Counted from the stretch's first letter, positions 3,444 to 36,446 are shown. The stretch: DNA of 64,000 bases from Acidobacteriota bacterium (GCA_965263035.1 OZ253580.1:2816001-2880000); one strand, 5' to 3'. Notes: a model not told the origin generated them from the letters alone. Program-made: numbers and translations.

Positions 3444-5261
3444 CTATTGCCTCGCCATTTCCATAATCCGGCCGGGGCCCCGTTTGTCGTGGAACAGCTG
3501 CAGAATTTTCGCCGCAATCGGAGCTGCCACAGCTCCACCCGAGCCGCCGGCTTCCACCAGGACAACTACGGCGATCTCAGGAAACTTCTGGGGAGCAAAA
3601 CCCACAAACCAAGCATTGGCAGTGAACCGGGAGGCTTGCCCCGCGGCAAGCTTCGAGAGGCCCGCCCGGCCAATGGTCTGCGCCGTTCCCGTCTTCCCAC
3701 ACACGTCGAAGCCGTTGACCTGAGCGGCTCGGCCGGTTCCAAACCGATTCACCACCTCCCACATGGCTTCCCGCACCAAGTCGAGGTTGTCACTCGAGAT
3801 ATTGATGGCAGGCGTGTTTCTTGCCGACTGCCCCCTGGGAAGCTGGTTCCGGGCCACATGCAGGGGAGCGGCAGCTCCTGTGGCCAGGATACCGACCATC
3901 CGAGCCAGCTGCAGTGGCGTCAGGTGGACCGGGCCTTGACCAATGGCGACAGAAACTGTTTCCCCTCGGTACCACTTCTGGCGGTAGATCCGCCTTTTCC
4001 ATTCCCTGGACGGGACCAATCCGGCGACCTCCCCCACCAAGTCGATTCCAGTGGGCCGGTCGAGGCCGATGGCGTGCCCGAAACCGGAGATCAGATCGAT
4101 GCCCAGGCCCTTTCCGAGCTGGTAAAAGTACACATTGCACGAGCTTCGGATGGCTTCCCGGAGCGACACGGATCCATGCCCACCCTTCTTCCAGCATCTG
4201 AAATGATGCCCGTACAGAGTCACGCCGCCGCCGCAAAAATAGGACTGATTCGGATCGATACCCCCCGCTTCCAGACCGGCTAGCGCCACGACCAACTTGA
4301 AGACCGACCCCGGGGCAAACGTACTCTGGAGCGCCCGGTTCTGGAGTGGGTGGTGTTCGTCTGCGACGAGACGGTTCCATTCCCGTCGGCTGATTCGGGC
4401 TGCAAACCAGTTGGGGTCGAAAGCCGGCTGACTCGCCAGGACCAATATCTCGCCGTTTCGGGGGTCGAAGGCAACAACCGCTCCCCGCCTGCCGCCGAGT
4501 TGCTCTTCAGCCGCGATCTGCAGGTCAAGATCAAGCGTGAGCTCCAGCGCGTCTCCCTCCTCGGGAGGGACACGGGCCAGCTCGTCGATGGTGCGGCCCA
4601 GACTGTCGACGAGTATTTTTCGGGATCCGTTCCGGCCCGCCAGATGACGATTGTAGACCCGTTCGACGGCGGACTTCCCCACGATGTCGCCGGCCCTGAA
4701 ATCGGAAAACTCTGCCGTCTCCAACTGAACCCGTGACGCCTCACCCACATAACCCAGGACATGTGCGGCCAATTCACCATACGGGTACGATCGTCTCGGT
4801 TCGGCCAGAACATCCAACTCCGGATGCTCGCCCTTCCGGGAGAGGAGATAGGCCACCTCCGCCATGGTCAGGCTCTTCTTGACCACCAGCGGTTGATACG
4901 GGGAATATCCGTCGGTTGCGGCAAGGTCCTGCTCCAGACTCTGTTCGTCAAGACCAAGTCCCTGGACCAGAAAGTCCACGGTGGCCGCCAAGTTTGACGC
5001 CTCGCTCCGATAACACACCAAGCTGAACGAGTTCACACTGCTCGCCAACACCCGTCCTTCCCGATCGTAGATCACTCCGCGGGGGGCCCTGATGGGGATC
5101 GTACGAGCGCGGTTGCGCTCCGCTGCCACGCTATGGTGCGTGAAATCGACGACGGTCAGATGCCAAAGCTTCAGGAACAGCCCCAGAAACAAGAAGACGA
5201 GAAGCCGTTGGATCCATCGGAGACGAAGCCGGCCGAGTGAATTGTCCTGATAAAGGGGCAT
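3444..5261 (-). CDS. mrdA: Penicillin-binding protein 2
   Basis: N-terminal TM, APRGVIYDR, GSVFK (SxxK), SCN (SxN) and GKTGTAQ. Start MPLYQDN; the longer ORF reads into the upstream repeat. Confidence 0.95.
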   Translation of the reverse strand: MPLYQDNSLGRLRLRWIQRLLVFLFLGLFLKLWHLTVVDFTHHSVAAERNRARTIPIRAPRGVIYDREGRVLASSVNSFSLVCYRSEASNLAATVDFLVQGLGLDEQSLEQDLAATDGYSPYQPLVVKKSLTMAEVAYLLSRKGEHPELDVLAEPRRSYPYGELAAHVLGYVGEASRVQLETAEFSDFRAGDIVGKSAVERVYNRHLAGRNGSRKILVDSLGRTIDELARVPPEEGDALELTLDLDLQIAAEEQLGGRRGAVVAFDPRNGEILVLASQPAFDPNWFAARISRREWNRLVADEHHPLQNRALQSTFAPGSVFKLVVALAGLEAGGIDPNQSYFCGGGVTLYGHHFRCWKKGGHGSVSLREAIRSSCNVYFYQLGKGLGIDLISGFGHAIGLDRPTGIDLVGEVAGLVPSREWKRRIYRQKWYRGETVSVAIGQGPVHLTPLQLARMVGILATGAAAPLHVARNQLPRGQSARNTPAINISSDNLDLVREAMWEVVNRFGTGRAAQVNGFDVCGKTGTAQTIGRAGLSKLAAGQASRFTANAWFVGFAPQKFPEIAVVVLVEAGGSGGAVAAPIAAKILQLFHDKRGPGRIMEMARQ

Positions 5262-5278
5262 GACTACCGATGGACCTC

Positions 5279-5442
5279 TAGCAGTCCGTGGTGAAAGTCC
5301 CGCGAGCACCGAGACCGGTCCTGCGCCGGCCGGACCAGGCGTGATGAGGGAGCATACCGGGAGTACGTGACCGAGTTGCAACGCAGTCCGCCGGGATGCA
5401 GGGACGGTCGAATGCCGTGACGGCTTTTACCACGGGCTGCTA
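5279..5442. mobile_element. Hairpin/MITE-like element type A, copy 1 (between mreD and mrdA)
   Basis: Terminal inverted repeats TAGCAGTCCGTGGTGAAAGTC / GGCTTTTACCACGGGCTGCTA (18/21); closely similar copy at 6865-7028; internally self-complementary. Confidence 0.8.
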
Positions 5443-5488
5443 TGGGACTGCTGCGGCTGGACTGCCCCGACCTGTCCAAAGCGGTCTC

Positions 5489-6058
5489 CTAGAAGGGATC
5501 TTCCTCGACCATCGACTTCCTGGAGAAATTCTTGGGAGGAAACTTGATCCGATCGTAACCGTGAAAAACGAAGACTCCGACCAGCGATGTGACGCAGCTG
5601 CGACCAGCGATGAACAGCAGCAAGCTATTCGACAATGGCTGTCCGAGTAAGTCTAAGATAGCAACGATTAGAATCGTGTCAAGGGAGGCTGCCGCCCCCA
5701 ACAACAACATGCGTCCGAGAACGCCTTCCGGCGACGCCCTCAGGCGCAGCAGACCAACCAGACATCCAATCAAGGTCTTGCTCAAGCCGTTGAGTCCCAA
5801 GAGGCTTCCCAATAGCAGATCGGAGAGCAGGCCGAAGCAAGTGCCCCAGAACGCACCCTTGGCCGCTGCCGAATGCAGGGACAGGTAGAGAACCAGTATC
5901 AGCGGCAGATCCAGGTAGCGCCGCAACTCCGGCAGTGCCCTGCTGAGCAGAATCTCGAAGCTTCCTGCGAGCAGGAGCAGGAGCAGGATCTCGGTGCGGG
6001 AGAATCGGGCTTGCAGAGGGGTCCAACTTGTCTCGGCAACCGGCCGCGGGCGTTTCAA
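5489..6058 (-). CDS. mreD: Rod shape-determining protein MreD
   Basis: Hydrophobic 189-aa protein with DLPLILV and GLLSDLL...GLNGLSKT, located between mreC and mrdA. Confidence 0.88.
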   Translation of the reverse strand: MKRPRPVAETSWTPLQARFSRTEILLLLLLAGSFEILLSRALPELRRYLDLPLILVLYLSLHSAAAKGAFWGTCFGLLSDLLLGSLLGLNGLSKTLIGCLVGLLRLRASPEGVLGRMLLLGAAASLDTILIVAILDLLGQPLSNSLLLFIAGRSCVTSLVGVFVFHGYDRIKFPPKNFSRKSMVEEDPF

Positions 6059-6864
6059 GGCTCACGTGCGACGAGGATTTCCTCGATTTTGGAAAAATCG
6101 ACGAAGGGCTCGACCTTAATATTGCGATATATCATTTCTCCTTTCTCGGAGCTCACTATACGGCCGACCGGAATGCCTTTGGGATAGATCCGGTCGGCCC
6201 CGGAAGTGTAGACCAACTCCCCGACATCCACCGGCTCGTGATTGGGGATGAAATTCCACTCGAGGAGATCGCTTCCGTCGCCCTGGAGCACACCTTGCAG
6301 GCGGGAGTCCGCCAGCATGGCGCCAGCGGAAGCGCCACGGTTGGTCACCAGCTCCACCTCCGAGCTCACGGGTGTGGTCGCCACGACGCGCCCCACGATT
6401 CCCGAGAGACCGATGACGGCCAAGTTTCGCTTGACGCCATGACGGGTCCCGACGTTGATGACGAGACGATGACTGAAGAAGGGAGCGGTCTTCCAGATAA
6501 TGGTGGCCGTCGTGGTTTCGAAAAGATACTGGCGGGCGAGGATCTGGAGTTCCGCGCTGCGGCCCAGCATCGACTGAACGCTCTTGAGCTGCGCGTTCTC
6601 CAGGCGAAGGCTCCCGATCTCTGCCTCCAATTCCTCGTTCCGCTCCTGAACTCCGAAGAGAATCACATAGCGATTCAATGCTCCCCCGACGCTGTCGGCC
6701 ACTGCCGAAACAGCCAGCGCAAGAGGGGAGATCACGGCCACTCCCAGGGTTCTCAGCAGTGTCTGACCGTCGGGATTCCGAACCTGCGCCGAGATCAGCA
6801 CCAAGTGCAACACGATCGCCACGATGACCAGGTGCAGCGACTTCCGTTCGGCCGGCCAACTCAT
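6055..6864 (-). CDS. mreC: Rod shape-determining protein MreC
   Basis: TM segment plus coiled coil, INVGTRHGV, GIVGRV and TSGADRIYPKGIPVG. Start MSWPAER. Confidence 0.93.
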   Translation of the reverse strand: MSWPAERKSLHLVIVAIVLHLVLISAQVRNPDGQTLLRTLGVAVISPLALAVSAVADSVGGALNRYVILFGVQERNEELEAEIGSLRLENAQLKSVQSMLGRSAELQILARQYLFETTTATIIWKTAPFFSHRLVINVGTRHGVKRNLAVIGLSGIVGRVVATTPVSSEVELVTNRGASAGAMLADSRLQGVLQGDGSDLLEWNFIPNHEPVDVGELVYTSGADRIYPKGIPVGRIVSSEKGEMIYRNIKVEPFVDFSKIEEILVAREP

Positions 6865-7028
6865 ATCAGTCCGTGGTGAAAGTCCCGCGAGCACCGAGAC
6901 CGTTCCTGCGCCCGCCGGACCAGGCGCAACGGAGGGAGCAGACCGGGAGTATGTGAGCCGATAGCAACGCAGTCCGCGCACGATGCAGGGACGGTCGAAT
7001 GCCGTGACGACTTTTGCCACGGGCTGAT
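6865..7028. mobile_element. Hairpin/MITE-like element type A, copy 2 (between mreB and mreC)
   Basis: Inverted repeats ATCAGTCCGTGGTGAAAGTC / GACTTTTGCCACGGGCTGAT (17/20); diverged copy of 5279-5442; abuts the mreC ATG. Confidence 0.8.
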
Positions 7029-7038
7029 CCGGAGATCC

Positions 7039-8061
7039 TCAGGAGCTGATCCTCCTCAAGAGCTCAATGTCCTCGAGCATCTTTCCGGTTCCGATAGCGA
7101 CAGAGGAGAGTGGATTCTCGGCCACATAGACGGGAAGACCCGTCTCCTGGCTGAATCGGTAATCCATCTTCTGGAGCAGCGCCCCTCCTCCGGTCAAGAT
7201 GATTCCCGAGTCCGATATGTCGGCGGACAACTCGGGCGGCGTCCTCTCCAGGGCGACTCGGACCGCATTCACGATGGCCACGATGGAGTCGGCCAGCGCC
7301 TCCCGAATCTCTTCATCGGTGACGATCACGGTCTTGGGTATTCCCTCGATGAGGTTCCTTCCCTTCACTTCCGCGGTGATGGTATCCGGCAATTCGGCCG
7401 CCGATCCGAGCTCGATCTTCACTCGCTCAGCCGTCCGCTCGCCGATGAGCAGGTTGTGCTTTCGTTTGATGTACTGAATGATGGCTTCGTCCATTTCGTT
7501 TCCCGCCACCCTGACGGAGCGGCTGTGGACGATCCCCGCAAGACTGATGACGGCGATGTCGGTGGTCCCGCCGCCGATGTCGACGATCATGTTTCCGTTC
7601 GGCTCGGTGATGGGAAGACCAGCCCCGATGGCCGCCGCCATCGCTTCCTCCACCAGATAGACCTCGCTGGCCTTCGCGCGTAGCGCAGATTCGCGAACTG
7701 CCCGCTTTTCCACCTGTGTGATCTCGGAAGGGATGCAAATGATGATCCGGGGATTCAGCAAAAAACTCCTGTTCTGAGCCTTCCTGATGAAATAACGGAG
7801 CATTTCCTCGGTCACGTCGAAGTCGGCGATGACCCCATCCTTCATGGGCTTGATGGCGACGATGTTGCCCGGCGTCCTCCCCAGCATCTCCTTGGCGTCC
7901 GTCCCAACGGCTTCCACCTTGTTGGTGAACTTGTTGATGGCAACGATGGAAGGTTCGTCGACGACGACTCCCTTCCCCCGTGCGAACACGAGAGTATTCG
8001 CCGTGCCCAGATCAATGGCCAGATCGTGGGAAAAAGATTTGAACAGGGAACGAAAAATCAT
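7039..8061 (-). CDS. mreB: Rod shape-determining protein MreB
   Basis: DLAIDLGTANT, VDIGGGTTD and LTGGGALL motifs. Confidence 0.98.
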   Translation of the reverse strand: MIFRSLFKSFSHDLAIDLGTANTLVFARGKGVVVDEPSIVAINKFTNKVEAVGTDAKEMLGRTPGNIVAIKPMKDGVIADFDVTEEMLRYFIRKAQNRSFLLNPRIIICIPSEITQVEKRAVRESALRAKASEVYLVEEAMAAAIGAGLPITEPNGNMIVDIGGGTTDIAVISLAGIVHSRSVRVAGNEMDEAIIQYIKRKHNLLIGERTAERVKIELGSAAELPDTITAEVKGRNLIEGIPKTVIVTDEEIREALADSIVAIVNAVRVALERTPPELSADISDSGIILTGGGALLQKMDYRFSQETGLPVYVAENPLSSVAIGTGKMLEDIELLRRISS

Positions 8062-8257
8062 TGGTCCCTTATGCCCCTCGGGTTTTCAGCGGGACCACAC
8101 GCTCCGCCAAGGCAGCCCCGTTTTACTGGCGCCCATTATCCGACGCCGTCAATATCAGTCGCAAGAGACCTCTCTGCAGAGACCGCGTAGCGGTATCTGG
8201 CCCATGGTATAATCGGCGACTGACGCAAACCTGATTCAGGGGCTGACGGAGGACAGG

Positions 8258-10162
8258 ATGCTACCCTTTTTCCGCAAGAAGCGACGAGGGCTCAAATGGA
8301 TCTTGTGGCTGGTCATCGTAGGTTTGGGCATCGGGATGCTGGGTCTGTTCGTCGATACCCCGGGTCCGAGTTCCGGCGTTTCCTCCGCCCACGCGGCCGA
8401 GGTGGCCGATTTCGTCATTACTTCCAGTGAATTCCGGAGACACTACATCCAACTGGTCGACGCCTACCGCCGCGTCTACAAGTTGGACCGGCAGGATCCT
8501 GCCATCGTCAAGCAGTTGCGCCTGGGCCAACAGGCGCTCGATCAGCTGGTAGCGGAATACGCAACGTTCCACGAAGCCCGACAGATGGGCATCGCCGTGA
8601 CCTCGGATGAAATCGTTCGATTCATTGCCAAGACCCCCGTATTCCAGGAAAACGGCAACTTCATCGGGGTGGATCGCTATCGCGCCATCTTACGCGCCAA
8701 CAACTGGGCGCCCCAGGAATTCGAGGACAGCATCCGGCGACAGCTTGCCCAGGAGAAGCTGCGTAGAATCCTGACTGATGGGATCTTCCCCACGCCCGGA
8801 GAAATCCGGCGAGAGTTTCTGAGCCGGAATCAGGAGGTGAAGCTCCGGTACGTGACCTTCGATCCGGAGGAGTTGGCGCCGGCGGACGTGGAAGCAGAAA
8901 AACTCAAGGAGTATTTCGACGACCGCCAGGAGAATTACCGGGTCGGCGAGCAACGCAGGATACGCTACGTTTCCGGTTCCGTCGACCCTGAGAACGTCAG
9001 CGTCTCAGAAGAGCAGATCCGCGATCGAATGGAGCGCGTCACTGACACGGACCAAGTGAGAGTCAGCCATATTCTGGTTTCGGTGAGAAGCGCTGACGAA
9101 GAACCCGCGGCGAGGGCCAAGGCCCAGGGCCTCTTGCAGCAGCTTCGATCCGGTGCGGATTTCGCACAGTTGGCTCGAGAGCACTCCGAGGACCCCGTTT
9201 CGGCGGCGTCCGGTGGGGACCTTGGTTTTTTCGGACGAGACAAAATGATGCCGGAGTTCGAGAAGGCCGCTTTTGCGTTGAAGCCCGGAGAGCTGAGCGA
9301 TCTGGTAGTGACGCCTTTCGGCTACCACATCATCCGCGGCACCTTCAATCCCGAGCATCACGATGGAGATGCTCGGCGTCCAATCGCCGAATATGAAGCC
9401 CGGCGGCAGGAAGCGGAGAACCAGGCCAAGGAGCTGGCGACGGAAATATCCGGAGAGCTGGCGGAGGACCCGGACCTGGCGAAGGCGGCCAGCGCTCGAG
9501 GTCTCCCGGTCCAGGAATCGGACTACTTCGAGCTCGGCGGATTCATTCCCGGACTGTCCGTCAAGAACGACTTCAACCAGGATGTCTTCGGTCTCCAAGA
9601 GAACCAGTCACTGGAGCCGTACAAAACGGCCGATTCCTACCTGGTGGCTCAGCTCCTGGAGATCCGACCTGCCCACATGCCGCCTTTCGAAGAGTTACGC
9701 GAGAAGGTTCTCTCCGATTACCGCTCCACGCAGGGTGACGAATCCGCTCGGGAGACCGCTTTCGCCATGCATAAGACCATCCAGGGCGACGGCGAGTTCC
9801 AGAAGCTGGCGCAGGAACGAGAACTGCAGGTCATGACGACACCCTTCTTCAAGCGGGGCGCTACCATCGACGAGAACCTCCGATTCTCGCCGCAGGTTCA
9901 CGACCATGCCTTTCGACTGAAGACGGGAGAGGTCGCGCCACCCGTCCTGGTCTCCGGAAAGTACTTCGTGTTCCAAGTGGCCGAGAAGACGGAACTGGAC
10001 CAGGAGAAGTTCGAACGCGAGAAGAGTCAACTGGAAAAGGATTTGACGGAGAAAAAGCGTACGGACTACTTCAATGCCTATGTGGAAGGCACGCTGGAAC
10101 GCCTGCGCAGCGACGACGCCATCACCATCAACCAGGAGTTGGTGGATGCCATGACCGGGTAG
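8258..10162 (+). CDS. PpiD/SurA-type membrane-anchored peptidyl-prolyl isomerase/chaperone
   Basis: N-terminal TM, SurA-like N domain and parvulin motifs (SHILV, FAQLAREHSED, GGDLGFF, TPFGYHII); GGAGG RBS. Confidence 0.9.
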   Translation: MLPFFRKKRRGLKWILWLVIVGLGIGMLGLFVDTPGPSSGVSSAHAAEVADFVITSSEFRRHYIQLVDAYRRVYKLDRQDPAIVKQLRLGQQALDQLVAEYATFHEARQMGIAVTSDEIVRFIAKTPVFQENGNFIGVDRYRAILRANNWAPQEFEDSIRRQLAQEKLRRILTDGIFPTPGEIRREFLSRNQEVKLRYVTFDPEELAPADVEAEKLKEYFDDRQENYRVGEQRRIRYVSGSVDPENVSVSEEQIRDRMERVTDTDQVRVSHILVSVRSADEEPAARAKAQGLLQQLRSGADFAQLAREHSEDPVSAASGGDLGFFGRDKMMPEFEKAAFALKPGELSDLVVTPFGYHIIRGTFNPEHHDGDARRPIAEYEARRQEAENQAKELATEISGELAEDPDLAKAASARGLPVQESDYFELGGFIPGLSVKNDFNQDVFGLQENQSLEPYKTADSYLVAQLLEIRPAHMPPFEELREKVLSDYRSTQGDESARETAFAMHKTIQGDGEFQKLAQERELQVMTTPFFKRGATIDENLRFSPQVHDHAFRLKTGEVAPPVLVSGKYFVFQVAEKTELDQEKFEREKSQLEKDLTEKKRTDYFNAYVEGTLERLRSDDAITINQELVDAMTG

Positions 10163-10230
10163 CCATCATGCGCGGGTCGTAGCGATCCCCGCCACTAGCT
10201 CCCACGTCTCACCGGCAATGCCTCAGCGGA

Positions 10231-12057
10231 CTACTGCACCGTGACCGACTTGGCCAGATTCCGGGGGCGGTCGATATCGCAGCCTCGCTCCCTGGCCACA
10301 TAGTAGGCCAGGAGTTGGAGCGCGATCACGCTCAGGAAAGGCGTGAACATCTCTCCACAGTGCGGAATCTCGATCACGTCGTCGGCCAGCTCGGCCAAGT
10401 GCGTGTCTCCTTCCGTCCCCACCGCGATGACCGGCCCGTTTCGACTCTTGATTTCCTGGATGCTGCCGATCATCTTTCGATAGACACTGTCGCGGGGCGC
10501 CAGGCAGACGGTGGGGAAATTCTCGTCCACCAGGGCAAGAGGTCCGTGCTTCATTTCTCCCGCGGCGTACCCTTCAGCGTGCAGGTAGGAGACCTCCTTC
10601 ATCTTCAGGGCGCCCTCCATCGCCACCGGGTAGCTGAACCTTCTCCCCAGATAAAGAAGGTTCCGGTAGTGGGCGCACCGGCGGGCGATTTCTTCGATGG
10701 CCGGCGCCCGCGCTAGCATGGACTGCATCCTCTCGGGCAGAGCCCGAAGCTCATGGACGAATTCCTGGCCTTCGCTCAATGACATCTGCTGGTGACGGCC
10801 CAGCAGGAGGCCCACGAGATAGAGGATGGCGATCTGGGAGACGAAAACCTTGGTGGAGGCGACACTGATTTCCGGACCGGCATGATTGTAGATTCCGGCG
10901 TCGGTCAGTCGCGCGACAGTGCTGCCGACCACGTTGACGAGGCCCAGGCTGAGAGCTCCCCGCCGTTTCACCTCGCTCACCACGGCCAGGATGTCAGCCG
11001 TCTCCCCCGATTGGCTGATGGCCAGAACCGCTGTGCGCGCTTGCAGGTTCAGCTTGCGGTACTGGAACTCGGAAGCGAGATCGACGTCGACAGGATAGTT
11101 GGTGCAGCTCTCGATGACGTATCGCCCCAGCAAGCCGGCATAGTAGGAGGTCCCACAGGCCAGTATGATGAGCCGCCGCATGTTCCGCAGGCGCCCCCAG
11201 ACTCCCTCCAACCCTCCCAGCTTGGCCAGCCCTTCCGCCTCGATCAGCCTTCCCCGGATAGCCTCTCCGACCACCTCGGGCTGCTCGTAGACGTCCTTGA
11301 GCATGAAGTGGGGGTAACCCTTCTTCTCGGCGGAGGTCATGTCCCAGTCCAGGGTCTGGACCGATCGATTCATGGGCCTCCCACTCAGAGTGCGGATCCG
11401 GTAGCTCCCGGGCTTCAGCAGCGCCACCTCACCATCATGCAGGTAGGCCACCTCTCGAGTGTGACTCATCAAAGCCGCCGCGTCGGACGCAGCAAAAATC
11501 TCACTGTCCCGAATTCCCAGGACCAGGGGACTGCCCAGCCGGGCAACCACGATTTGGGAAGGATCCTCGGAGGAAATCACTCCGATTCCGTAGGTGCCGT
11601 CCACGCGTTGGAGGGCCGAGTTGACCGCATCTTCCAAGTCGCCTCGATAGTATTCCTCGATCAGGTGGGCCAGCACCTCGGAATCGGTGGAAGAGCGGAA
11701 CAGATGACCCTTTTCCCGCAGTTCCTCCCGCAGCTTGCGGTAATTTTCGATGATTCCATTGTGCACCACGAAGATGCGGTCCTGACAATCGCCATGTGGA
11801 TGAGCGTTTTCCGGCGAGGGCACGCCATGCGTGGCCCAACGGGTGTGAGCAATGCCACCCCAGCCTGCCCAAGGCTTGTCCCCGAGAAGATTGGCCAGGT
11901 CCGAAATCTTTCCCACTGCCTTCCGGCAGTGAATGCCGTCATTCACGGCCACCGCAACACCGCTGGAGTCATAGCCGCGGTATTCCAGTCTTCTCAAGCC
12001 GTTGAGGAGGATAGGCAGGGCGGGGCGATCCCCCAGGTAGCAGATAATTCCGCACAT
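10231..12057 (-). CDS. glmS: Glutamine-fructose-6-phosphate aminotransferase
   Basis: MCGII, LEYRGYDSSG, HTRWATHG, SQSGETAD and PRNLAKSVTV. Confidence 0.98.
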   Translation of the reverse strand: MCGIICYLGDRPALPILLNGLRRLEYRGYDSSGVAVAVNDGIHCRKAVGKISDLANLLGDKPWAGWGGIAHTRWATHGVPSPENAHPHGDCQDRIFVVHNGIIENYRKLREELREKGHLFRSSTDSEVLAHLIEEYYRGDLEDAVNSALQRVDGTYGIGVISSEDPSQIVVARLGSPLVLGIRDSEIFAASDAAALMSHTREVAYLHDGEVALLKPGSYRIRTLSGRPMNRSVQTLDWDMTSAEKKGYPHFMLKDVYEQPEVVGEAIRGRLIEAEGLAKLGGLEGVWGRLRNMRRLIILACGTSYYAGLLGRYVIESCTNYPVDVDLASEFQYRKLNLQARTAVLAISQSGETADILAVVSEVKRRGALSLGLVNVVGSTVARLTDAGIYNHAGPEISVASTKVFVSQIAILYLVGLLLGRHQQMSLSEGQEFVHELRALPERMQSMLARAPAIEEIARRCAHYRNLLYLGRRFSYPVAMEGALKMKEVSYLHAEGYAAGEMKHGPLALVDENFPTVCLAPRDSVYRKMIGSIQEIKSRNGPVIAVGTEGDTHLAELADDVIEIPHCGEMFTPFLSVIALQLLAYYVARERGCDIDRPRNLAKSVTVQ

Positions 12058-12069
12058 CGTTCACCCCGG

Positions 12070-12078
12070 ATTATAACA
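12070..12078 (-). promoter_or_regulatory. Extended -10 promoter element (TGnTATAAT) of glmS
   Basis: The minus strand reads TGTTATAAT 12 nt upstream of the glmS ATG. Confidence 0.65.
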
Positions 12079-12245
12079 GTAGCCAATCGGGGCCCTTCCG
12101 TTGCCGTAGCGTCGGCCGGAGTGCGTTCCGCCGGAATGTTGCAGCGGAGCGCCGCGTCCGGGAAAGCGCGTGAAGACACTCGGAAGCGATTGAGCGTTGG
12201 ATCTTTTTCGTAATGGCCTCGAGGTCCCGGTGCGAACCGCGGGCC

Positions 12246-12409
12246 AGGAGTCTGCGCGGTAGGAATGATCGTAGCGAGACAGCGGGGAATCGAGGCCAGA
12301 TTTTCTCGATTTGGAGGTGCATAGTTGTTCTATTCACCGAGAAATCGGGGAAATATGGACCGATTCTACCGCTTTCGCAGTAGATTGATTTCTGCCGCGC
12401 AGGCTCCTA
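12246..12409. mobile_element. Hairpin/MITE-like element type B, full-length copy
   Basis: Inverted repeats AGGAGTCTGCGCGGTAGGAAT / ATTTCTGCCGCGCAGGCTCCT (18/21); right end overlaps the sufT stop; the same ends recur at 16722-16765. Confidence 0.75.
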
Positions 12410-12778
12410 GAGAAGCCCCAATTGAAGTCTTGCCGCCTCGGACATGTTCTCCATGGTCCAGGGCGGATCCCACACGACTTCAACGGCGACTTTCTCTACG
12501 CCGGGAAGCGCTCGAATTTTGGACTCGACGTCCAACGGCAGCGACTCGGCCACCGGACAGCTGGGCGAGGTCAGGGTCATCTTGATATCCACGGCTCCAG
12601 TGGCGTCGACTTCGACCCCGTAGACCAGACCCAACTCGTAGATATCCACCGGAATCTCCGGATCGTAACAACTCCTGAGAACCGATATCACGTCTTCCTG
12701 AATGGGCCCGCCCACTGGCGACGTCCCGCTTCCCGATTCGATCTGGAAACCCGGTTCCGGATTCAATTCTTCTACCAT
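12407..12778 (-). CDS. sufT: SUF-associated DUF59 Fe-S assembly protein (SufT-like)
   Basis: YDPEIPVDIYELGLVY, MTLTSPSCPVA and WDPPW...MSEAARLQLG. Confidence 0.92.
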   Translation of the reverse strand: MVEELNPEPGFQIESGSGTSPVGGPIQEDVISVLRSCYDPEIPVDIYELGLVYGVEVDATGAVDIKMTLTSPSCPVAESLPLDVESKIRALPGVEKVAVEVVWDPPWTMENMSEAARLQLGLL

Positions 12779-16662: not shown

Positions 16663-16721
16663 TGGATTCCCTTCCTGAATTCAGGAGCCTCGCGGCTTGA
16701 TGGATTGGCAGCCTGACGGCT

Positions 16722-16762
16722 TAGGAGCCTGCACGGCAGAAATTGATCTACCGCGCAGACTC

Positions 16763-16765
<3 letters not shown>
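16722..16765. repeat. 44-bp internally deleted derivative of element type B (opposite orientation), forming a hairpin at the sufB stop
   Basis: The minus strand reads TAGGAGTCTGCGCG-GTAG-ATCAATTTCTGCCGTGCAGGCTCCTA, i.e. the left and right ends of 12246-12409 joined at GTAG. Confidence 0.75.
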
Positions 16766-18220
<1,455 letters not shown>

Positions 18221-23869: not shown

Positions 23870-25774
23870 ATGCCCGATCTCTCGGTCGACGTCATTGTCA
23901 TTGGGGGCGGCCACGCCGGTTGCGAGGCGGCGTTTGCCGCGGCCCGATTGGGAGCCAATACCGCCCTGGTTACGATAAACCGCGAAATGATTGCCCAGAT
24001 GTCATGCAACCCGTCCGTCGGGGGCATCGGCAAGGGTCACCTGGTGCGGGAGATCGATGCCCTGGGGGGCGTTATCGGCCAAGCGGCGGATTCGAACGGA
24101 ATCCACTTCCGTCTGCTCAATCGGAGTCGCGGCCCTGCGGTCCAAGCCCCTCGCGCCCAGTGCGACAAGAAACTCTATCGGCAGGAGATGCAGCATCGGC
24201 TGCGTTGTCAGAAAAACCTCACGGTAGTCCAGGCAGAGGCCACTGCCCTGTTGCGGAATGGAAACCGAATCGCCGGCATTGAAACCGCTGCCGGCGGTCG
24301 GGTCGACGCACCCTGCGTCGTATTGACCACCGGCACCTTCCTGAACGGGCTCTGCCATCTGGGACAGAAGAAGTTTCGTGCCGGCCGTTCGGGAGAAAAG
24401 GCTTCCGTGCAGCTCGCGCGCTCCTTGAAGTCCATCGGCTTTCGCCTCGGCCGCCTGAAGACGGGGACACCGCCGAGGCTTGAAAAGAGAAGCATCGACT
24501 TCTCGCGTTTCGAAGTTCAACCCAGCGATCCGGATCCCACCTTGTTCTCGTTCCAAAGCCAGGGGCCGAGACTGCGCCAAGTCGACTGTTGGCTCACGCT
24601 CACCAACAGCCGTGTCCATGATGTGATCCGCAACAACCTGCATCGCAGCCCCCTCTACAGCGGTGACATCGTCGGTCTCGGACCTCGTTATTGCCCCTCC
24701 ATCGAGGACAAGGTGGTGAAATTTCCGCACCACGACCGCCATCAGCTCTTCCTGGAGCCGGAAGGACTCGATTCCGAGCTCATCTATGTGAGCGGTCTCT
24801 CCACCAGTCTCCCGGTGGACGTACAGGAAGAAATTCTGGCCCAGATCGACGGCTTGGAAGAAACGACCATGATCCGGCCAGGTTATGCGGTCGAGTACGA
24901 TTACGTCCAGCCGTCAGAGTTGCGTCCTTCGCTGGAGACCAAGAAGGTCGAGGGGTTGTTTCATGCCGGCCAGATCAACGGGACCACGGGCTATGAGGAA
25001 GCCGCCGGCCAGGGAATCCTGGCCGGAATCAATGCCGCCCTCAAGGCCGCCGGGGACGAGCCTTTCGTACCCAGCCGCAGCGAGAGCTACCTGGGGATCC
25101 TGGTGGACGATCTGGTCACCAAGGACGTCGACGAACCGTATCGGATGTTCACGTCCAGAGCCGAGTGCCGCCTGCTGCTCAGGATCGACAATGCCGACCG
25201 TCGACTCATGCCTCACGGCCATAGGCTGGGACTGGTGTCATCGAAGCTCTTCGACAGATTCCAGCACAAATGGAAGCGGATCGACGATGCCATCGAATTT
25301 TTGCGGAAAACTCGTCTGAAGAAAGCGTCCCGCCTGATGGAGGACCTGCGGTTGCAGACCGGCGCTCCCCGCGGAGCCTGCCTGGACCGTCTGCTCAAGC
25401 GGCCCGAGGTCGACATTCGCGATATGACTCCCATTTTGAGGGAGCACAGGCATTATCTGAGCCGGGAGGAGGGGAAGGTCGTTCAGACGCAGATCCGGTA
25501 CGAAGGCTATATCCGCTTGCAGATGGAGGATGTCCGACGGCTGAAGAACATGGAGGGCAGAATCATCCCTGCCGGACTCGACTTCGGCATCGTCAACGGG
25601 CTTTCCCTGGAGATGAGGGAGCGTTTGGAGCGGGTTCGCCCCACCAGCCTGGGTCAGGCTTCTCGAATTCCCGGAATCACTCCTGCCGCTCTGTCGATGC
25701 TGAGCATTCACCTCGAAGTGAGAAGAAGGTCTCTGGTGCGGGAGCCTGCCGCCGGAACGATTTCCCAAGCATGA
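23870..25774 (+). CDS. mnmG: tRNA uridine-5-carboxymethylaminomethyl(34) synthesis enzyme MnmG (GidA)
   Basis: [39 protein letters not shown] and [14 protein letters not shown]. Confidence 0.98.
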
Positions 25775-26409
25775 GCCGCTTCTCGAAATACGTCTCTTCG
25801 CTTGAAACCCTCTTTGGCCTGACCCTCCACCAAGCGCAACGGAACGGCGTCCGGACCTATCTGCGGTTGCTGGCCAAATGGAACTCGCGGGTGAACCTGA
25901 CCCGCCTGGTTCGGATAGAAGACGAACTGCGATTTCATTTCTTCGAATCGTTCTGGCTGGCACAGCGGTTCCTGGAGCCGAGCCATGCCGTAGTGGACGT
26001 CGGCAGCGGAGCGGGGTTCCCAGGGCTGGCGATGCAACTCTATTACCCCAGTCTCTCCCTGACCCTCGTCGAAAAGAACTTCAAGAAGACCGTTTTTCTG
26101 AAGGAAGTCGCCCGGACTCTCTCCCTGCGGGCCCGGATCGTTCACGGACAAGCCGAAACCGACGCCGACTGGGAGGGCGTCCAACTGGTCACGGTCCGCG
26201 GGCTCAAGCCGTCACCCAGGTTGACCGAAACCTTGGGCCGCCGCGGCATCCCGTTACTGGCGCTTCATGGTGAGAAGCTCAGCGAAACCCTGAAGGGGCG
26301 CCGGTGTGTTCGCCGGGAACGGGTTCCGGGCTCGAGACGCCGTTTTGCGACGCTATTTGGCTACGACCCGCCGAAACCGGTTCGCATGTTTCACGTGAAA
26401 CAATGCTGA
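25771..26409 (+). CDS. rsmG: 16S rRNA m7G527 methyltransferase RsmG (GidB)
   Basis: [14 protein letters not shown] and [10 protein letters not shown]; ATGA overlap with mnmG. Confidence 0.9.
26387..26402. promoter_or_regulatory. parS: parS site
   Basis: Perfect palindrome TGTTTCACGTGAAACA immediately upstream of parA-parB. Confidence 0.93.
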
Positions 26410-26647
26410 CTTGGTTCGACGAGCGCACCGGGACGCCGTTGGTCCGGCTTTTGGTCTGCTCGTACCCATTCGATGCACCGAACCATAGCGGCAGGAAATC
26501 GTCGAATCCGTCCCCGGGGAACAAGTGTCCGCTTCCGGACGGCTTCGGCCGGCTCGCCGCCTATCCGTCGAAACGGGATACTTGGGTGTCCCGCTCTCCG
26601 GATCTTTCACCGCCTGCTGTTACTATGCCGGAACCCGGAACCGCGAA

Positions 26648-27454
26648 ATGACGAGAACCATCGCCATTGCCAACCAGAAAGGTGGTGTCGGCAAGACCAC
26701 GACCGCAATCAACTTGGCCGCCTCGCTGGCTATCGCGGCGTGGCGCGTCCTCCTGGTTGACCTGGACCCCCAGGGAAACGCCACGTCGGGATTGGGAATC
26801 GACAAGAACGAAGACGCTCTTTTCATCTATGACATTCTCGCGGACGGCGCGGATCCGCTTTCGGCCCTGAGGCGGACCGAGATGGAGAACCTGCATCTCC
26901 TCCCTGCCAATCGCGCTCTTGTCGGCGCCACAGTGGAGCTACTCGACGCGTCGGACCGTGAATGGCTTGTCGCCAGGGCTCTGAACCGTATTCGCGAGAG
27001 TTACGACTTCATTCTGATCGACTGCCCGCCGTCGCTGGGCATTCTCACTCTCAACGGCTTGGTGGCCGCCGACTCGGTCCTCATTCCCATCCAGGCAGAA
27101 TATTTTGCCCTGGAAGGGCTCTCGGACCTCATGGAGACGATTCGCCGCATCCGGGAAGGGTACAACCCCGGTCTGGAGCTGGAAGGGATTCTCCTGACCA
27201 TGTATGACGAGCGCCTCATTCTCTCCTCCCAGATTCGAGCTGACGTCTGCTCTCACCTCGGATCTCACGTTTTCGACACCTTTATTCCCCGCAACGTCCG
27301 GCTGGCCGAATGCACCAGCTTTGGGCAACCCATTCTGCTTTATGACGCCCATTGTAAAGGAGCCGACAGCTACCAAAGCCTGGCCCGGGAATTGGTTGGC
27401 CGGCGCCAGCCGGGACCGAATCAGGACCCGACATCCCATGAGGTGAACGGATGA
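26648..27454 (+). CDS. parA: Chromosome partitioning ATPase ParA/Soj
   Basis: NQKGGVGKTTT, DLDPQGNATSG, DCPPSLG and IPRNVRLAE. Confidence 0.97.
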   Translation: MTRTIAIANQKGGVGKTTTAINLAASLAIAAWRVLLVDLDPQGNATSGLGIDKNEDALFIYDILADGADPLSALRRTEMENLHLLPANRALVGATVELLDASDREWLVARALNRIRESYDFILIDCPPSLGILTLNGLVAADSVLIPIQAEYFALEGLSDLMETIRRIREGYNPGLELEGILLTMYDERLILSSQIRADVCSHLGSHVFDTFIPRNVRLAECTSFGQPILLYDAHCKGADSYQSLARELVGRRQPGPNQDPTSHEVNG

Positions 27455-28281
27455 AGCGAAGAGTTCTCGGACGGGGCCTGGCTGCTCTGCTGCCCAGGCC
27501 CGAAGCCGCCTCCTTTTTCCTTCAAATCGAACTGAAAAGGATCCGGCCGAATCCTTTTCAGCCCAGAATCCGCATGGACAGCGCCAGACTGCAGGAGCTC
27601 GCCGATTCGATCACCGAAAACGGCGTTCTCCAACCCATCGTGGTCCGGTCCCGGCCTGAGGGCTACGAGATTGTCGCCGGCGAACGCCGCTGGAAGGCGG
27701 CTCAACAGGCCGGTCTTGCTCGGATTCCTGCCGTCGTCCAGGACCTTTCCGACGAAAGAATGGTGGAAGTCGCCGTTGTCGAGAATATCCAGCGCGACGA
27801 ATTGAGTCCGATCGAGGAAGCGCACGCGTACCATATCCTGATCCAGGATTTTCGACTCACCCAGGAACAGGTGTCTCAACGCGTCGGCCGCAGCCGCGCA
27901 GCCGTCGCCAACACTCTTCGCCTGCTGCGTCTTCCCAAAGCTGTGCAGGAATCCCTTCTGGACGGCAAGATCAGCATGGGGCACGCCCGAGCCCTGATTC
28001 CCCTGACTCAAGCACAGCAATTGAAGTTGGCCCGCCAAATCGTGTCGGCGGACCTCTCGGTCCGGCAGGTAGAACGCCGCGTACAGGCGCTGCGCCGCGA
28101 CCCACCCTCGCCTCCGGCTTCCCTTGACCCCAACGTCAAGGCCGCGCAGCAGCGGCTGGAACGCCGCTGGAAGACGAGAGTTAAAATCCGCACCCGGGGC
28201 TCAACGGGCCAGATCGTATTCCACTTCAAATCCAGCGAGGAACTGGACCGCTTGTACGAGAACCTCATGAAGGAGGAGTGA
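27451..28281 (+). CDS. parB: Chromosome partitioning protein ParB/Spo0J
   Basis: LGRGLAAL, NPFQPR, AGERRWKA, ENIQR and an HTH. Confidence 0.97.
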   Translation: MKRRVLGRGLAALLPRPEAASFFLQIELKRIRPNPFQPRIRMDSARLQELADSITENGVLQPIVVRSRPEGYEIVAGERRWKAAQQAGLARIPAVVQDLSDERMVEVAVVENIQRDELSPIEEAHAYHILIQDFRLTQEQVSQRVGRSRAAVANTLRLLRLPKAVQESLLDGKISMGHARALIPLTQAQQLKLARQIVSADLSVRQVERRVQALRRDPPSPPASLDPNVKAAQQRLERRWKTRVKIRTRGSTGQIVFHFKSSEELDRLYENLMKEE

Positions 28282-28294
28282 GCCCTTCCTCCCG

Positions 28295-29722
28295 CTATTT
28301 CCCGATGCAGAAAGAGCCGAAAATCTGTCCCAGCAGGTCTTCCACGGTTGTCTCGCCCGTCACCGCGTCCAGTTCGGTCAAGGCTCCCCGCAGGTGGTAC
28401 AGCGGGAATTCTTCGCTCAGACCGTCCCGATAGGCATCCATTCCCTCACCGAGCATCTGCCGGGCACGCTGCAGACACTCCTTGTGTCGGATGTCGGTGA
28501 TCACTACGCGTTCCCGCTCCCAGTCGCTGTCAGGCGCCACGGCCTCCCGGATAGCCCGCCTGAGGGTGTCCATCCCCTGACCTGTCAACGCCGAAACGTC
28601 GGACCTGCTGCGAGCGCCGGACTCCAATTCGGAAGGGATTCGAACTGCGGCCTCCAGGTCCACCTTGTTCACCACCAGCAGATAGGGCTTGCCCTTGAGC
28701 TCCGACCAGATTCTGGCGTCCTCCGCGGAGAAGTCTCGGCTGCGATCGACCACGAACAAGGTCAAGTCCGACGCGCCGACGTAGTCCAATGATTTCCGGA
28801 CACCGAGCCGCTCCACCGGGCTTCTCGCTCTTCGGATTCCAGCCGTATCCACCAGCTGCATCGGGATGCCCTCCAGATCCACAGCTTGGTCTATGGCGTC
28901 TCTGGTGGTACCGGCGACCGAACTGACGATAGCCCTTTCTGTTCTACATAAACAATTGAAAATACTAGACTTACCAGCATTTGTCCTGCCGGCGATGGTG
29001 GCCACGAACCCGTCTCTGAGAACCCGTCCGACGCGAAAGGATTCCTCCAGTTCGCCGATGCGGCCGGCGATCCGTCGCAAGTCCCGTAGCAATTTGTCCC
29101 GGCTGTCGGGTTCCACGGGATCTTCGACGAATTCCAATCCCGTTTCCAGGTGGGAGACAACCCGCACCAGGCTCTCCTTCACCGAGCGGAGCGCCCGGGA
29201 CAACTTGCCGTCCAATTGGTCCCGGGCGACGCGCGCCTGGTGCGCGGTCTGGCTTCGGATCAGATCGCGGACCGCCTCTGCCTGGGCCAGATCCATCTTC
29301 CCGTTGAGAAACGCTCGCAGCGTAAATTCCCCCGGTTCAGCCAGGCGGGCGCCCACTTCCAGGAGGCCATCCACGATCTGCGCCTCTACCGCAGGGCTTC
29401 CATGGCAGGAAATCTCCACGACGTCCTCCCCGGTGTAGGAGGCCGGTGCCGCGAAAAACGTCACCAGCACCTGGTCGATTCGATTCCCGCCTCGGTCCAG
29501 AAAGTCCGTCAAAGACGAATGTCGGGGTTTCCAAGCTCGGCGGAGGGAGGGAGGAAGCCGCCGGCCCACCAGACTCCGGCTGGACGGACCGCTGACGCGA
29601 ATCACCTTGACGGCTCCGCGCCCCGGCGGCGTGGCGGCCGCAACTATGGTTTCACCGTAGGAGTCTGTGGCGTCAGGAGGTTGCGTAGATGATGACGCGC
29701 CGATTGGATCCCGTGCCTTCAC
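28295..29722 (-). CDS. mnmE: tRNA modification GTPase MnmE (start uncertain)
   Basis: SYTGEDVVEISCHG, GRTNAGKSS, GTTRD, DTAGIR, NKVD and C-terminal FCIGK. Confidence 0.97.
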   Translation of the reverse strand: MKARDPIGASSSTQPPDATDSYGETIVAAATPPGRGAVKVIRVSGPSSRSLVGRRLPPSLRRAWKPRHSSLTDFLDRGGNRIDQVLVTFFAAPASYTGEDVVEISCHGSPAVEAQIVDGLLEVGARLAEPGEFTLRAFLNGKMDLAQAEAVRDLIRSQTAHQARVARDQLDGKLSRALRSVKESLVRVVSHLETGLEFVEDPVEPDSRDKLLRDLRRIAGRIGELEESFRVGRVLRDGFVATIAGRTNAGKSSIFNCLCRTERAIVSSVAGTTRDAIDQAVDLEGIPMQLVDTAGIRRARSPVERLGVRKSLDYVGASDLTLFVVDRSRDFSAEDARIWSELKGKPYLLVVNKVDLEAAVRIPSELESGARSRSDVSALTGQGMDTLRRAIREAVAPDSDWERERVVITDIRHKECLQRARQMLGEGMDAYRDGLSEEFPLYHLRGALTELDAVTGETTVEDLLGQIFGSFCIGK

Positions 29723-31954: not shown

Positions 31955-32024
31955 CTGTTCCGGTCCGTGACCACCCAGCATCGCCTACTACAATCCACGA
32001 ATCGCGTCTCTCGCGACCAGGCCT

Positions 32025-32234
32025 CTACGGAAGAGGGTCGAACCCTCCGGCGTGCCAAGGGTGACAACATGCCACTCGCCTGAGCCCAAGCAGGATCCCC
32101 CTGAGCACTCCTTTTTTCTGAATCGCTTGGCGCATGTACTCCGAACAGGAGGGGTGAAACCGACAGCACGGGGGCACCACAGGAGAAACGAACTTCTGGT
32201 ACAAGCTCAGACCTTCGGTCAGGAACCGTCTCAC
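32025..32234 (-). CDS. yidD: Membrane protein insertion efficiency factor YidD
   Basis: CRFHPSCSEY...CHPWHAGGFDP. Confidence 0.93.
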   Translation of the reverse strand: MRRFLTEGLSLYQKFVSPVVPPCCRFHPSCSEYMRQAIQKKGVLRGILLGLRRVACCHPWHAGGFDPLP

Positions 32235-33712: not shown

Positions 33713-33763
33713 CCCGAACCTCCCTTTCTGCTCTCGTCCACCCTCTGCCCCGGAGCCATCCGG

Positions 33764-36409: not shown

Positions 36410-36446
36410 CTGCCAAGCCGATGTGCCGAATGTAGACTGCCCGGGG

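What the first reader, a model, noticed from the sequence alone, without database searches (positions are those of the whole stretch)
5279..12409. Two ~163-bp hairpin element types with unrelated ends but the same size, fold and central motif
Seen: type A (5279-5442, 6865-7028) and type B (12246-12409) have different terminal repeats, yet all three are about 163-164 bp. The type A copies fold into one long imperfect hairpin; type B has paired ends and an apical stem. All carry a similar apex: GAGGGAGCATACCGGGAGTACGTGACCGAG (A1), GAGGGAGCAGACCGGGAGTATGTGAGCCGA (A2) and GAGGTGCATAGTTGTTCTATTCACCGAG (B). In all three, every mismatch in the terminal repeats is G-T/G-U-pairable on the + strand, which is antisense to the host operons. 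Inference: a superfamily of structured non-autonomous elements (ERIC/Correia-like in behaviour) whose conserved apex may be a protein-recognition site. It could be a mobile structured-RNA or ssDNA system that picks up different ends. No transposase is in the window.
Basis: partly seen in the sequence, partly recalled or inferred. Interest (0 to 1): 0.75.

Follow-up and report, generated by a model that had tools for sequence, protein, structure and literature searches.

The report
Two related hairpin-shaped miniature transposons
The three ~160-bp hairpins are copies of two related families of small non-coding mobile DNA elements (MITEs) that have multiplied in a group of uncultured soil-type Acidobacteriota; this is an ordinary kind of element, here in undescribed families with a few odd features.

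Summary
All three sequences fold as long imperfect hairpins, and the + strand folds far better. The boundaries need correcting: the quoted 164 bp includes target-site duplication. The elements proper are A1 5282-5439, A2 6867-7026 (158/160 bp) and B 12248-12406 (159 bp).

Both types are multicopy. The 4 nt outside the element match on both sides in 53 of 82 A copies (consensus NTAN), and 8 of 10 B copies sit in CTAG. Two filled/empty site comparisons confirm a 4-bp duplication.

So these are MITEs moved in trans by a DDE-type transposase that is absent from the window and not identified.

The ends are not unrelated. A and B share the terminal motif SAGTCYG...GGTRRAAR, the same left/right T/C asymmetry and a homologous apex (GGTGCATA).

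Orientation relative to flanking genes is random (14 antisense, 12 sense), so "antisense to host operons" is chance.

The G·T strand bias (14 versus 3) and the conserved apex remain unexplained.

There is no Rfam hit, and no paper in the library prints the motifs. Verdict: new members of a known kind.

The parts
5282..5439 (+). Type A MITE copy A1 (158 bp, CAGTCCGTGG...CCACGGGCTG). It lies between mreD (5489-6058, -) and the PBP2 gene (3444-5261, -).
   Evidence: Genes from Pfam.
5278..5281 (.). Left target-site duplication of A1 (CTAG). Its right partner is CTAT at 5440-5443, with one mismatch.
6867..7026 (+). Type A MITE copy A2 (160 bp), between mreC (6058-6864, -) and mreB (7039-8061, -).
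   Evidence: MreC domain.
6863..6866 (.). Left target-site duplication of A2 (ATAT). It overlaps the likely mreC start codon (CAT 6862-6864 on +). The right partner at 7027-7030 is ATCC (decayed).
12248..12406 (+). Type B MITE copy (159 bp, GAGTCTGCGCGG...CCGCGCAGGCTC), between glmS (10231-12057, -) and a SufT-like FeS_assembly_P gene (12407-12778, -).
   Evidence: Genes.
12407..12410 (.). Right target-site duplication of B (CTAG). CTA at 12407-12409 is the TAG stop codon of the - strand gene 12407-12778. The left partner at 12244-12247 is CCAG, with one mismatch.
16725..16762 (-). Mini-B: a 38-nt hairpin made of the two B termini only, flanked by TTAG (16721-16724) and CTAG (16763-16766). CTA at 16763-16765 is the stop codon of the sufB/D-like gene 16763-18220 (-).
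   Evidence: Gene.
5352..5369 (+). Apex stem-loop of A1 (GCATAC-CGGGA-GTACGTG).
6938..6955 (+). Apex stem-loop of A2 (GCAGACCGGGAGTATGTG).
12316..12338 (+). Apex stem-loop of B (GGTGCATAG-TTGTT-CTATTCACC). It shares GGTGCATA with the commonest A subfamily.

Best explanation
A1, A2 and B, plus a 38-nt mini-B at 16725-16762, are copies of two sister families of foldback-type MITEs. These are non-coding, about 158-bp, almost fully self-complementary derivatives of a DNA transposon.

How they most likely work:
- They are moved in trans by a DDE-type transposase encoded elsewhere in the genome. It recognises the shared termini (SAGTCYG...) and makes a 4-bp staggered cut at N-T-A-N tetranucleotides (CTAG for B).
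- In this G+C-rich genome such sites lie mostly between genes, often in stop codons. Copies therefore land inside operons, and the duplication restores the stop or start codon.
- Once inserted they are carried passively in operon transcripts, where either strand forms a long hairpin.

What is shown: multicopy status, size uniformity, the 4-bp duplication, insertion polymorphism, kinship of A and B, and absence of orientation bias.

What is inferred: the transposase class (IS5-like target, or the IS4-superfamily/IS1634 elements seen in the same genomes) and any effect on mRNA processing or stability.
For: 1. Copy number. Of these, 83 are type-A arms in 72 loci from 9 Acidobacteriota assemblies, and 26 loci are chance matches in other phyla.
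2. Size. There are 82 distinct full A copies including the window's two: 59 are exactly 158 bp, 75 are 156-160 bp, 3 are 97-98 bp, 3 are 170 bp and 1 is 414 bp.
3. B is also multicopy. Eight distinct further full-length copies at 92-96% identity lie in the flanks of A loci.
4. Target-site duplication. The 4 nt outside CAG...CTG are identical on both sides in 53 of 82 A copies, and 32 of those 53 are non-palindromic (TTAG, GTAA, ATAG and others). This excludes a 2-bp TA duplication plus a variable terminal base. Of 10 B copies, 8 have CTAG on both sides (the 10 include one overlap duplicate, L041/L042).
5. Filled versus empty sites.
   - L003 has ...TTAC[158 bp]TTAC..., where the paralogous IS copy in L048 has a single TCAC.
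   - L073, syntenic to the window at about 90%, has GTAT[short A]ATAT where the window has a single ATAT near 18770.
   - L073 lacks B at the glmS/sufT spacer.
6. The same exact 158-bp sequence occurs 24 times in 3 assemblies, which points to recent amplification.
7. A and B are related in termini, T/C end asymmetry, apex, size and duplication.
8. A stop codon lies in or against the duplication in 14 of the 65 A copies that have both flanks called. The same holds for B and mini-B in the window.
9. IS5 is reported to duplicate a Py-T-A-Pu tetranucleotide, mostly CTAG (PMC5493358, passages read).
10. IS1634-family elements in the same genomes are flanked by 4-bp CTAG/CTAA.
Against: - No autonomous element with A or B termini was found in the 1.31 Mb fetched. 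No arm pair is more than 414 bp apart within 6 kb, and two relaxed terminal-motif searches found none.
- The IS1634-type elements present have unrelated terminal repeats.
- In 29 of 82 A copies the two flanking tetranucleotides differ, mostly by one base. All three window copies are among the imperfect ones.
- A plain MITE model leaves three things unexplained:
   - the near full-length self-complementarity;
   - the strand bias of wobble mismatches (7 G·T versus 2 A·C in A, 7 versus 1 in B);
   - why the apex is better conserved than its flanks.
- Gene orientation and stop-codon counts rest on my own crude codon-usage gene caller.
Confidence: 0.85

Rival explanations
1. The elements are primarily a structured RNA (cis-regulatory or small RNA) that functions as the + strand hairpin. 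The apex would be a protein-binding site, and mobility would be secondary.
For: - The + strand folds are 17-30 kcal/mol more stable than the - strand folds, both for the window copies and for the consensus.
- Transition mismatches between the arms are 14 G·T versus 3 A·C on the strand defined by the shared termini.
- Among 51 distinct A copies, 99.2% of cells are paired. Four pairs show compensatory changes against 0.5 expected (0 of 500 shuffles reach this). Derived G·U cells number 12 against 5 derived A·C cells.
- The apex is conserved within A and shared with B.
Against: - Orientation relative to co-directional flanking genes is random (14 antisense, 12 sense for A; 2 and 2 for B). It is also random relative to replication.
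- No promoter-like or terminator-like site lies inside the elements.
- No Rfam match, even at E up to 10.
- Copies are so alike (mean 92-95% identity) that covariation is thin. The 4 compensated pairs trace to one 3-copy subfamily plus two single sequences.
- Sub-apical halves occur in mixed combinations, so pairing there is not maintained.
Confidence: 0.08
2. They are REPIN-like doublets moved as single-stranded DNA hairpins by a REP-associated tyrosine (HUH/Y1) transposase.
For: - The long hairpin shape and G·T-tolerant pairing on one strand would suit an ssDNA substrate.
- A REP-associated tyrosine transposase homologue exists in the same genomes. L024 17707-18717 matches Pfam Y1_Tnp at E 8.5e-7, and NCBIfam REP_Tyr_transpos at E 1.5e-13 (50.8 bits, below that model's 80-bit cut-off).
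Against: - 4-bp target-site duplications are present. From recalled knowledge, HUH/Y1 transposition makes none.
- The RAYT-like gene is flanked by a different repeat, AAGGGGACAGTCTGTTTTGC.
- It shares only a 7-mer with the A and B termini.
Confidence: 0.03
3. They are IS630/Tc1-mariner-type MITEs (as ISfinder files ERIC/MITEEc1), which duplicate only TA, with a variable first base belonging to the element.
For: - TA is the core of most flanks. Before CAG the trinucleotides are TAG 29, TAT 16, TAA 12 and TAC 4 of 82.
- The ends begin with CAGT, which from recall is typical of Tc1-like ends.
Against: - Identity of all four flanking bases in 53 of 82 copies, 32 of them non-palindromic, cannot arise from a 2-bp duplication.
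- The L003/L048 comparison shows 162 extra bases, that is 158 + 4.
- TTGA, TCAA and TCGA duplications lack TA.
Confidence: 0.04

Closest known systems
Bacterial MITEs in general (reviewed in PMC10969869, passages read; census in PMC11602168, passages read)
   Same: Small, non-coding and multicopy. They have terminal inverted repeats and a target-site duplication, are mainly intergenic, and depend on a transposase in trans.
   Different: The A and B sequences match nothing found here: Rfam, plasmid and phage BLAST, and full-text motif searches. The census supplement could not be opened, so prior listing there is unchecked.
IS5 and its target choice (PMC5493358, passages read)
   Same: 4-bp duplication of a T-A-centred tetranucleotide, with CTAG the commonest. 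Type B uses CTAG in 8 of 10 copies.
   Different: - Type A accepts N-T-A-N and some non-TA sites such as TTGA and TCAA.
- No IS5-family gene with matching ends was found.
- Comparison with IS5-family terminal repeats needs ISfinder, which was not available.
Correia elements of Neisseria and ERIC/MITEEc1 of enterobacteria (features recalled, not checked by any search)
   Same: Elements of about 100-160 bp that sit between genes of operons, are co-transcribed, and fold into long RNA hairpins.
   Different: From recall, both duplicate TA only. Here the duplication is 4 bp. The sequences were not compared.
REPIN/RAYT systems (PMC3733652 seen in the search listing only; features recalled)
   Same: Long imperfect hairpins in many copies. 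A RAYT-like gene occurs in the same genomes.
   Different: A and B have target-site duplications and lack the repeats that flank the RAYT-like gene.
Type C MITE and IS1634-family elements of the same genomes
   Same: Same target type: CTAG, CTAC and CTAA, 4 bp.
   Different: - Type C (130 bp) has only short terminal repeats (CCCGCATTTCTCACC) and an unpaired A+T-rich inside.
- Its ends resemble the L003 IS1634-type element (CCCGAGTTTACC), not A or B.

Membership tests
MITE (non-autonomous DNA transposon derivative) | Terminal inverted repeats | tested here: met
   The terminal 18-21 nt pair, and the whole element is self-complementary.
MITE (non-autonomous DNA transposon derivative) | Target-site duplication of fixed length | tested here: met
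   4 bp, identical on both sides in 53 of 82 A copies and 8 of 10 B copies. Two filled/empty comparisons agree.
MITE (non-autonomous DNA transposon derivative) | Small, uniform size without a transposase gene | tested here: met
   59 of 82 A copies are exactly 158 bp. B is 158-159 bp. That is too short for a transposase.
MITE (non-autonomous DNA transposon derivative) | Many dispersed copies and insertion polymorphism between related genomes | tested here: met
   83 arms in 72 loci from 9 assemblies. L073 and the window differ at three sites.
MITE (non-autonomous DNA transposon derivative) | An autonomous element with the same termini in the same genomes | tested here: inconclusive
   None in the 1.31 Mb fetched.
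IS5-family-derived MITE | 4-bp Py-T-A-Pu duplication | tested here: met
   Met for B (CTAG 8 of 10). A is looser (NTAN). IS5 rule from PMC5493358.
IS5-family-derived MITE | Termini matching an IS5-family insertion sequence | not testable with these tools
   ISfinder is not available. No IS5-family gene was seen among the repeated segments examined.
IS630/Tc1-type MITE (ERIC-like) | 2-bp TA duplication | tested here: not met
   The duplication is 4 bp, with 32 non-palindromic identical tetranucleotides and 162 extra bases at a filled site.
REPIN / RAYT | No target-site duplication; the repeats flank a single RAYT gene | tested here: not met
   Duplications are present. The RAYT-like gene in L024 is flanked by other repeats.
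Any Rfam RNA family | Covariance-model match | tested here: not met
   No match in 5000-12700 at E up to 10. At gathering scores the window yields only tRNA-Sec and one tRNA.

The most novel reading that the evidence does not exclude
The elements may be more than passive MITEs. On this reading the conserved apex stem-loop (GGTGCATA...TAT) and the one-strand G·U/G·T bias, both shared by two families whose arms have otherwise diverged, mean that a single-stranded hairpin form is recognised by a protein at the apex. That form could be a transposition intermediate or a transcript. This would be a hairpin-dependent step in a transposition pathway that still leaves a 4-bp duplication, or a domesticated RNA processing or stability module spread through operons by transposition.
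Probability: 0.12. Interest if true: 0.7.

Novelty: new member of a known kind. Interest (0 to 1): 0.35.

Why it matters
These are abundant, recently active mobile elements.

They occur in a clade of uncultured Acidobacteriota and sit inside essential operons (mreBCD-pbp2-rodA, suf, glmS) next to the replication origin. Three practical consequences follow:
- They explain contig breaks and spurious ORFs in such MAGs.
- They provide insertion-polymorphism markers between closely related genomes.
- They show how a T-A-centred target in a G+C-rich genome steers insertions onto stop codons.

If the apex and the strand bias turn out to be functional, the elements would offer a tractable case of a structure-dependent step in MITE biology.

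Tried and rejected
I folded them singly instead.
- A gapped pattern for the shared termini exceeded the tool's gap limit. A first sliding-fold script timed out. I replaced both with a G·U-tolerant stem scan.
- Rfam at gathering and at E up to 10 gave nothing.
- BLAST of A against plasmids and phages, and of B against plasmids, found no match.
- Full-text search for four terminal motifs returned 0 papers. Searches on MITEs and Acidobacteria returned 7 papers, none on these elements judging from the listing.
- The supplement of the MITE census (PMC11602168) could not be read.
- Search for an autonomous partner:
   - the L037 candidate (1,713 bp) is an A copy cut by an integrase-bearing insertion;
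   - the L060 pair (2,342 bp) is two separate copies, one of them orthologous to the L079 copy.
- The repeated segments near copies are IS4, IS1634, TnpB and RAYT-like genes with unrelated ends.
- The 188-bp spacer at 12058-12245 has no copy elsewhere.
- The hairpin-like hits at 45772-45843 and 62301-62394 lie inside called genes and are unrelated.
- The L022 11421-11578 hairpin is a different repeat.
- Promoter and terminator scans found nothing inside the elements.


Full report
**1. The observation**

The three stretches are as described.
- A1 and A2 are repeats of each other: three blocks at 95%, 85% and 96% identity, 90% overall.
- Each stretch folds as a single long imperfect hairpin. 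As RNA, the + strand gives -94.9, -83.8 and -94.7 kcal/mol (z -7.7, -5.9, -10.8; 0 of 200 shuffles as good). The - strand gives only -78.1, -74.5 and -65.2.
- The gap between strands means that many arm mismatches are G·U-pairable on the + strand only.
- A G·U-tolerant stem scan of all 64 kb (at least 22 of 24 pairs at the ends, span 60-260) finds these three and two unrelated sites inside genes.
- Rfam gives nothing for the region even at E up to 10. For the whole window it gives only tRNA-Sec and one tRNA.

**2. Setting**

Pfam on 52 called genes shows where the elements sit.
- They lie inside - strand operons:
   - mreB (7039-8061) / A2 / mreC (6058-6864) / mreD (5489-6058) / A1 / PBP2 (3444-5261) / rodA / RNase G;
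   - a SufT-like gene (12407-12778) / B / glmS (10231-12057).
- The window is the chromosomal origin region. It holds dnaA at 55749-57071, dnaN, gyrB, gyrA, rnpA, yidC, mnmE, gidA, gidB and parAB.
- No transposase or integrase domain is present.

**3. Copies elsewhere**

- Of 109 pattern matches, 83 are true type-A arms in 72 loci. The other 26 loci are chance hits in unrelated phyla.
- The 72 loci come from 9 assemblies, eight labelled Acidobacteriota (one of them as Candidatus Aminicenantes) and one simply "bacterium".
- After removing duplicates there are 82 full A copies including the window's two. By length: 59 are exactly 158 bp, 75 are 156-160 bp, 3 are 97-98 bp (apex deleted), 3 are 170 bp, and 1 is 414 bp because another MITE is nested in it.
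- BLAST of B against the same loci found 8 distinct further full-length copies at 92-96% identity in the flanks. B is therefore also multicopy in the same genomes.
- One exact 158-bp sequence occurs 24 times in three assemblies. Mean pairwise identity is 95% within assemblies and 92% between them.

**4. True boundaries and the target-site duplication**

- The four bases immediately outside CAG...CTG are identical on the two sides in 53 of 82 A copies. Counts: CTAG 9, TTAG 6, TTAA 5, TTGA 5, ATAT 5, ATAG 4, GTAA 4, GTAG 3, and others.
- Of those 53, 32 are non-palindromic. This rules out the alternative of a TA duplication plus a variable, self-complementary terminal base.
- Most of the other 29 copies differ at one base.
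- For B, 8 of 10 copies (counting one locus-overlap duplicate, L041/L042) have CTAG on both sides. The element proper is GAGTCTGCGCGG...CCGCGCAGGCTC, 159 bp.
- Two filled/empty comparisons agree:
   - L003 reads TTAC[158 bp]TTAC where a paralogous sequence in L048 reads TCAC once.
   - L073 is syntenic with window 8360-28641 at about 90%. It reads GTAT[98-bp A]ATAT where the window has ATAT once.
- L073 also lacks B, and indeed the whole 349-bp spacer, between glmS and the SufT-like gene. It carries a 42-nt mini-B insertion that the window lacks.

**5. A and B are kin**

- Termini. CAGTC--CGTGGTGAAAG (A) aligns with GAGTCTGCGCGGTAGAAA (B).
- End asymmetry. In both families the left end has T at position 4 and the right end has C. 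The same holds at the T/C before RRAAR.
- Apex. CGATTCG--GGTGCATA...TATGTGCC--CGAATCG (A) aligns with GATTTGGAGGTGCATA...TATTCGCCGAGAAATCG (B).
- The full-length alignment scores z 3.6 against 500 shuffles that keep the mirror symmetry. One of the 500 reaches it.
- Within A, mean column conservation is as follows:

| Region | Conservation |
|---|---|
| 5' terminal arm | 98% |
| 3' terminal arm | 97% |
| Apex stem-loop | 94.5% |
| Sub-apical flanks | 75-79% |

- The sub-apical flanks occur in mixed left/right combinations.

**6. Strand questions**

Arm-versus-arm comparison:

| Sequence | Watson-Crick | G·T on + | A·C on + | Other mismatches | Indel columns |
|---|---|---|---|---|---|
| Commonest A copy | 59 | 7 | 2 | 6 | 10 |
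| B consensus | 59 | 7 | 1 | 10 | 4 |

- Consensus folds are -103.1 (+) versus -85.5 (-) for A, and -89.8 versus -60.6 for B.
- With the two families oriented by their shared termini, the bias is 14 to 3.
- Among 51 distinct A copies, 99.2% of cells pair. Four pairs carry compensatory changes against 0.5 in shuffles (0 of 500 reach this). These trace to one three-copy subfamily and two single sequences.
- Derived G·U cells number 12 and derived A·C cells 5, my count.
- Orientation, however, is random.
   - With a codon-usage gene caller trained on the window's Pfam-confirmed genes, the 82 A copies split as: 14 antisense and 12 sense between co-directional genes, 17 between convergent genes, 22 between divergent genes, 4 apparently inside genes, and 13 too close to a locus edge.
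   - B (9 copies) splits 2, 2, 3 and 2.
   - In the 6.29-Mb CBDCJH chromosome, orientation is 9(+):14(-) where local GC skew is positive and 11:11 where it is negative.
- The window's three-out-of-three antisense arrangement is therefore chance.
- The wobble bias is a property of the element itself, not of how copies sit in the host.

**7. Where they land**

- In 14 of the 65 A copies with both neighbours called, a neighbour's stop codon lies in or against the duplication. In 15 of 65, a start codon lies within 30 nt.
- In the window:
   - the CTAG to the right of B contains the stop of gene 12407-12778;
   - the CTAG beside mini-B contains the stop of gene 16763-18220;
   - the ATAT beside A2 overlaps the likely mreC start.
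- A T-A-centred target in a G+C-rich genome explains the intergenic, intra-operon placement. This step is inference.

**8. Which transposase**

- No element with A or B termini and a coding-size interior was found in the fetched DNA.
- A 4-bp Py-T-A-Pu duplication, mostly CTAG, is the reported rule for IS5 (PMC5493358, passages read).
- In the same genomes, IS1634-family elements (NCBIfam, E 1e-85 to 1e-90) are flanked by CTAG or CTAA.
- A 130-bp type C MITE with ends resembling one of those elements also duplicates CTAG/CTAC.
- Their termini are unrelated to A and B.
- The class (DDE, 4-bp stagger) is well supported. The family is open.

**9. Known or new**

- The kind is known: a bacterial MITE that forms a hairpin and sits in operons, like Correia, ERIC or RUP elements. 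Those comparisons are from recall.
- Membership of the TA-duplicating IS630 type fails on the duplication length.
- Membership of the REPIN/RAYT type fails on the presence of duplications and on the repeats flanking the RAYT-like gene.
- I found no prior description:
   - Rfam;
   - plasmid and phage BLAST;
   - text search for four motifs, 0 papers;
   - 7 papers on MITEs plus Acidobacteria, none on these elements by listing.
- ISfinder and the census supplement remain unchecked.

**10. Verdict**

This is a real feature, correctly spotted. It is best read as two sister families of foldback MITEs with a 4-bp NTAN duplication, that is, new members of a known kind. The conserved apex and the one-strand wobble bias are unexplained and keep a small chance of something more interesting.

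Noticed in passing
window 16725-16762: Mini-B: a 38-nt hairpin made only of the two B termini, flanked by TTAG and CTAG, in the opposite orientation to B. A similar insertion of about 42 nt sits at a different site in L073 (about 10260-10305) and is absent from the window.
   Followed up: partly
window 52681-63613: The window is the replication-origin region. It holds dnaA (55749-57071), dnaN, gyrB and gyrA, with rnpA, yidC, mnmE, gidA, gidB and parAB upstream (23870-32590).
   Followed up: no
window 33765-33859 (-): A tRNA-Sec gene (Rfam, 69 bits) overlaps the 5' end of my call for the prephenate dehydratase gene (32846-33841). That gene start is probably over-extended.
   Followed up: no
window 33907-39512: A cluster of coenzyme F420-type genes: two radical-SAM CofG/H-like genes, an F420-0:gamma-glutamyl ligase, CofD, and an F420-dependent NADP oxidoreductase.
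   Followed up: no
window 39789-44156 (+): One 1,456-aa protein combines fatty-acyl reductase (NAD_binding_4, Sterile), AMP-binding, carrier (PP-binding) and acyltransferase domains.
   Followed up: no
window 12058-12245: A unique 188-bp spacer between the glmS start and element B has no copy in the fetched loci and is absent from the syntenic L073. No Rfam match, so no glmS ribozyme was detected.
   Followed up: partly
L059 5680-5809; L062 7878-8007; L048 10030-10157; L069 about 10052-10290: A third MITE family (type C, 130 bp) has ends CCCGCATTTCTCACC, an A+T-rich unpaired interior, and a CTAG/CTAC duplication. In L069 it is nested inside a type A copy, giving the 414-bp variant.
   Followed up: partly
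L018 7953-9993; L067 11724-13764; L056 3596-5636; L003 4654-6730: IS1634-family insertion sequences are flanked by 4-bp CTAG/CTAA duplications. In L018 the element shares its CTAG with the adjacent type A copy, which suggests a common hot spot.
   Followed up: partly
L024 17266-19091: A REP-associated tyrosine transposase-like gene is flanked on both sides by several inverted copies of AAGGGGACAGTCTGTTTTGC. The segment is repeated in L033 at 90% identity.
   Followed up: partly
L037 9995-11500: A type A copy is interrupted after about 120 bp by DNA that encodes a tyrosine integrase (Arm-DNA-bind_3, Phage_int_M, Phage_integrase).
   Followed up: partly
L044 4140-6527 (-): An IS4-family transposase is fused to an N-terminal DruA-like (Druantia) domain. 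The segment is repeated in L048 at 96% identity.
   Followed up: no
window 53917-54777: The direct repeats D1/D2 reported by the repeat finder are the S1 domains of ribosomal protein S1 (53236-55026). This is ordinary.
   Followed up: yes
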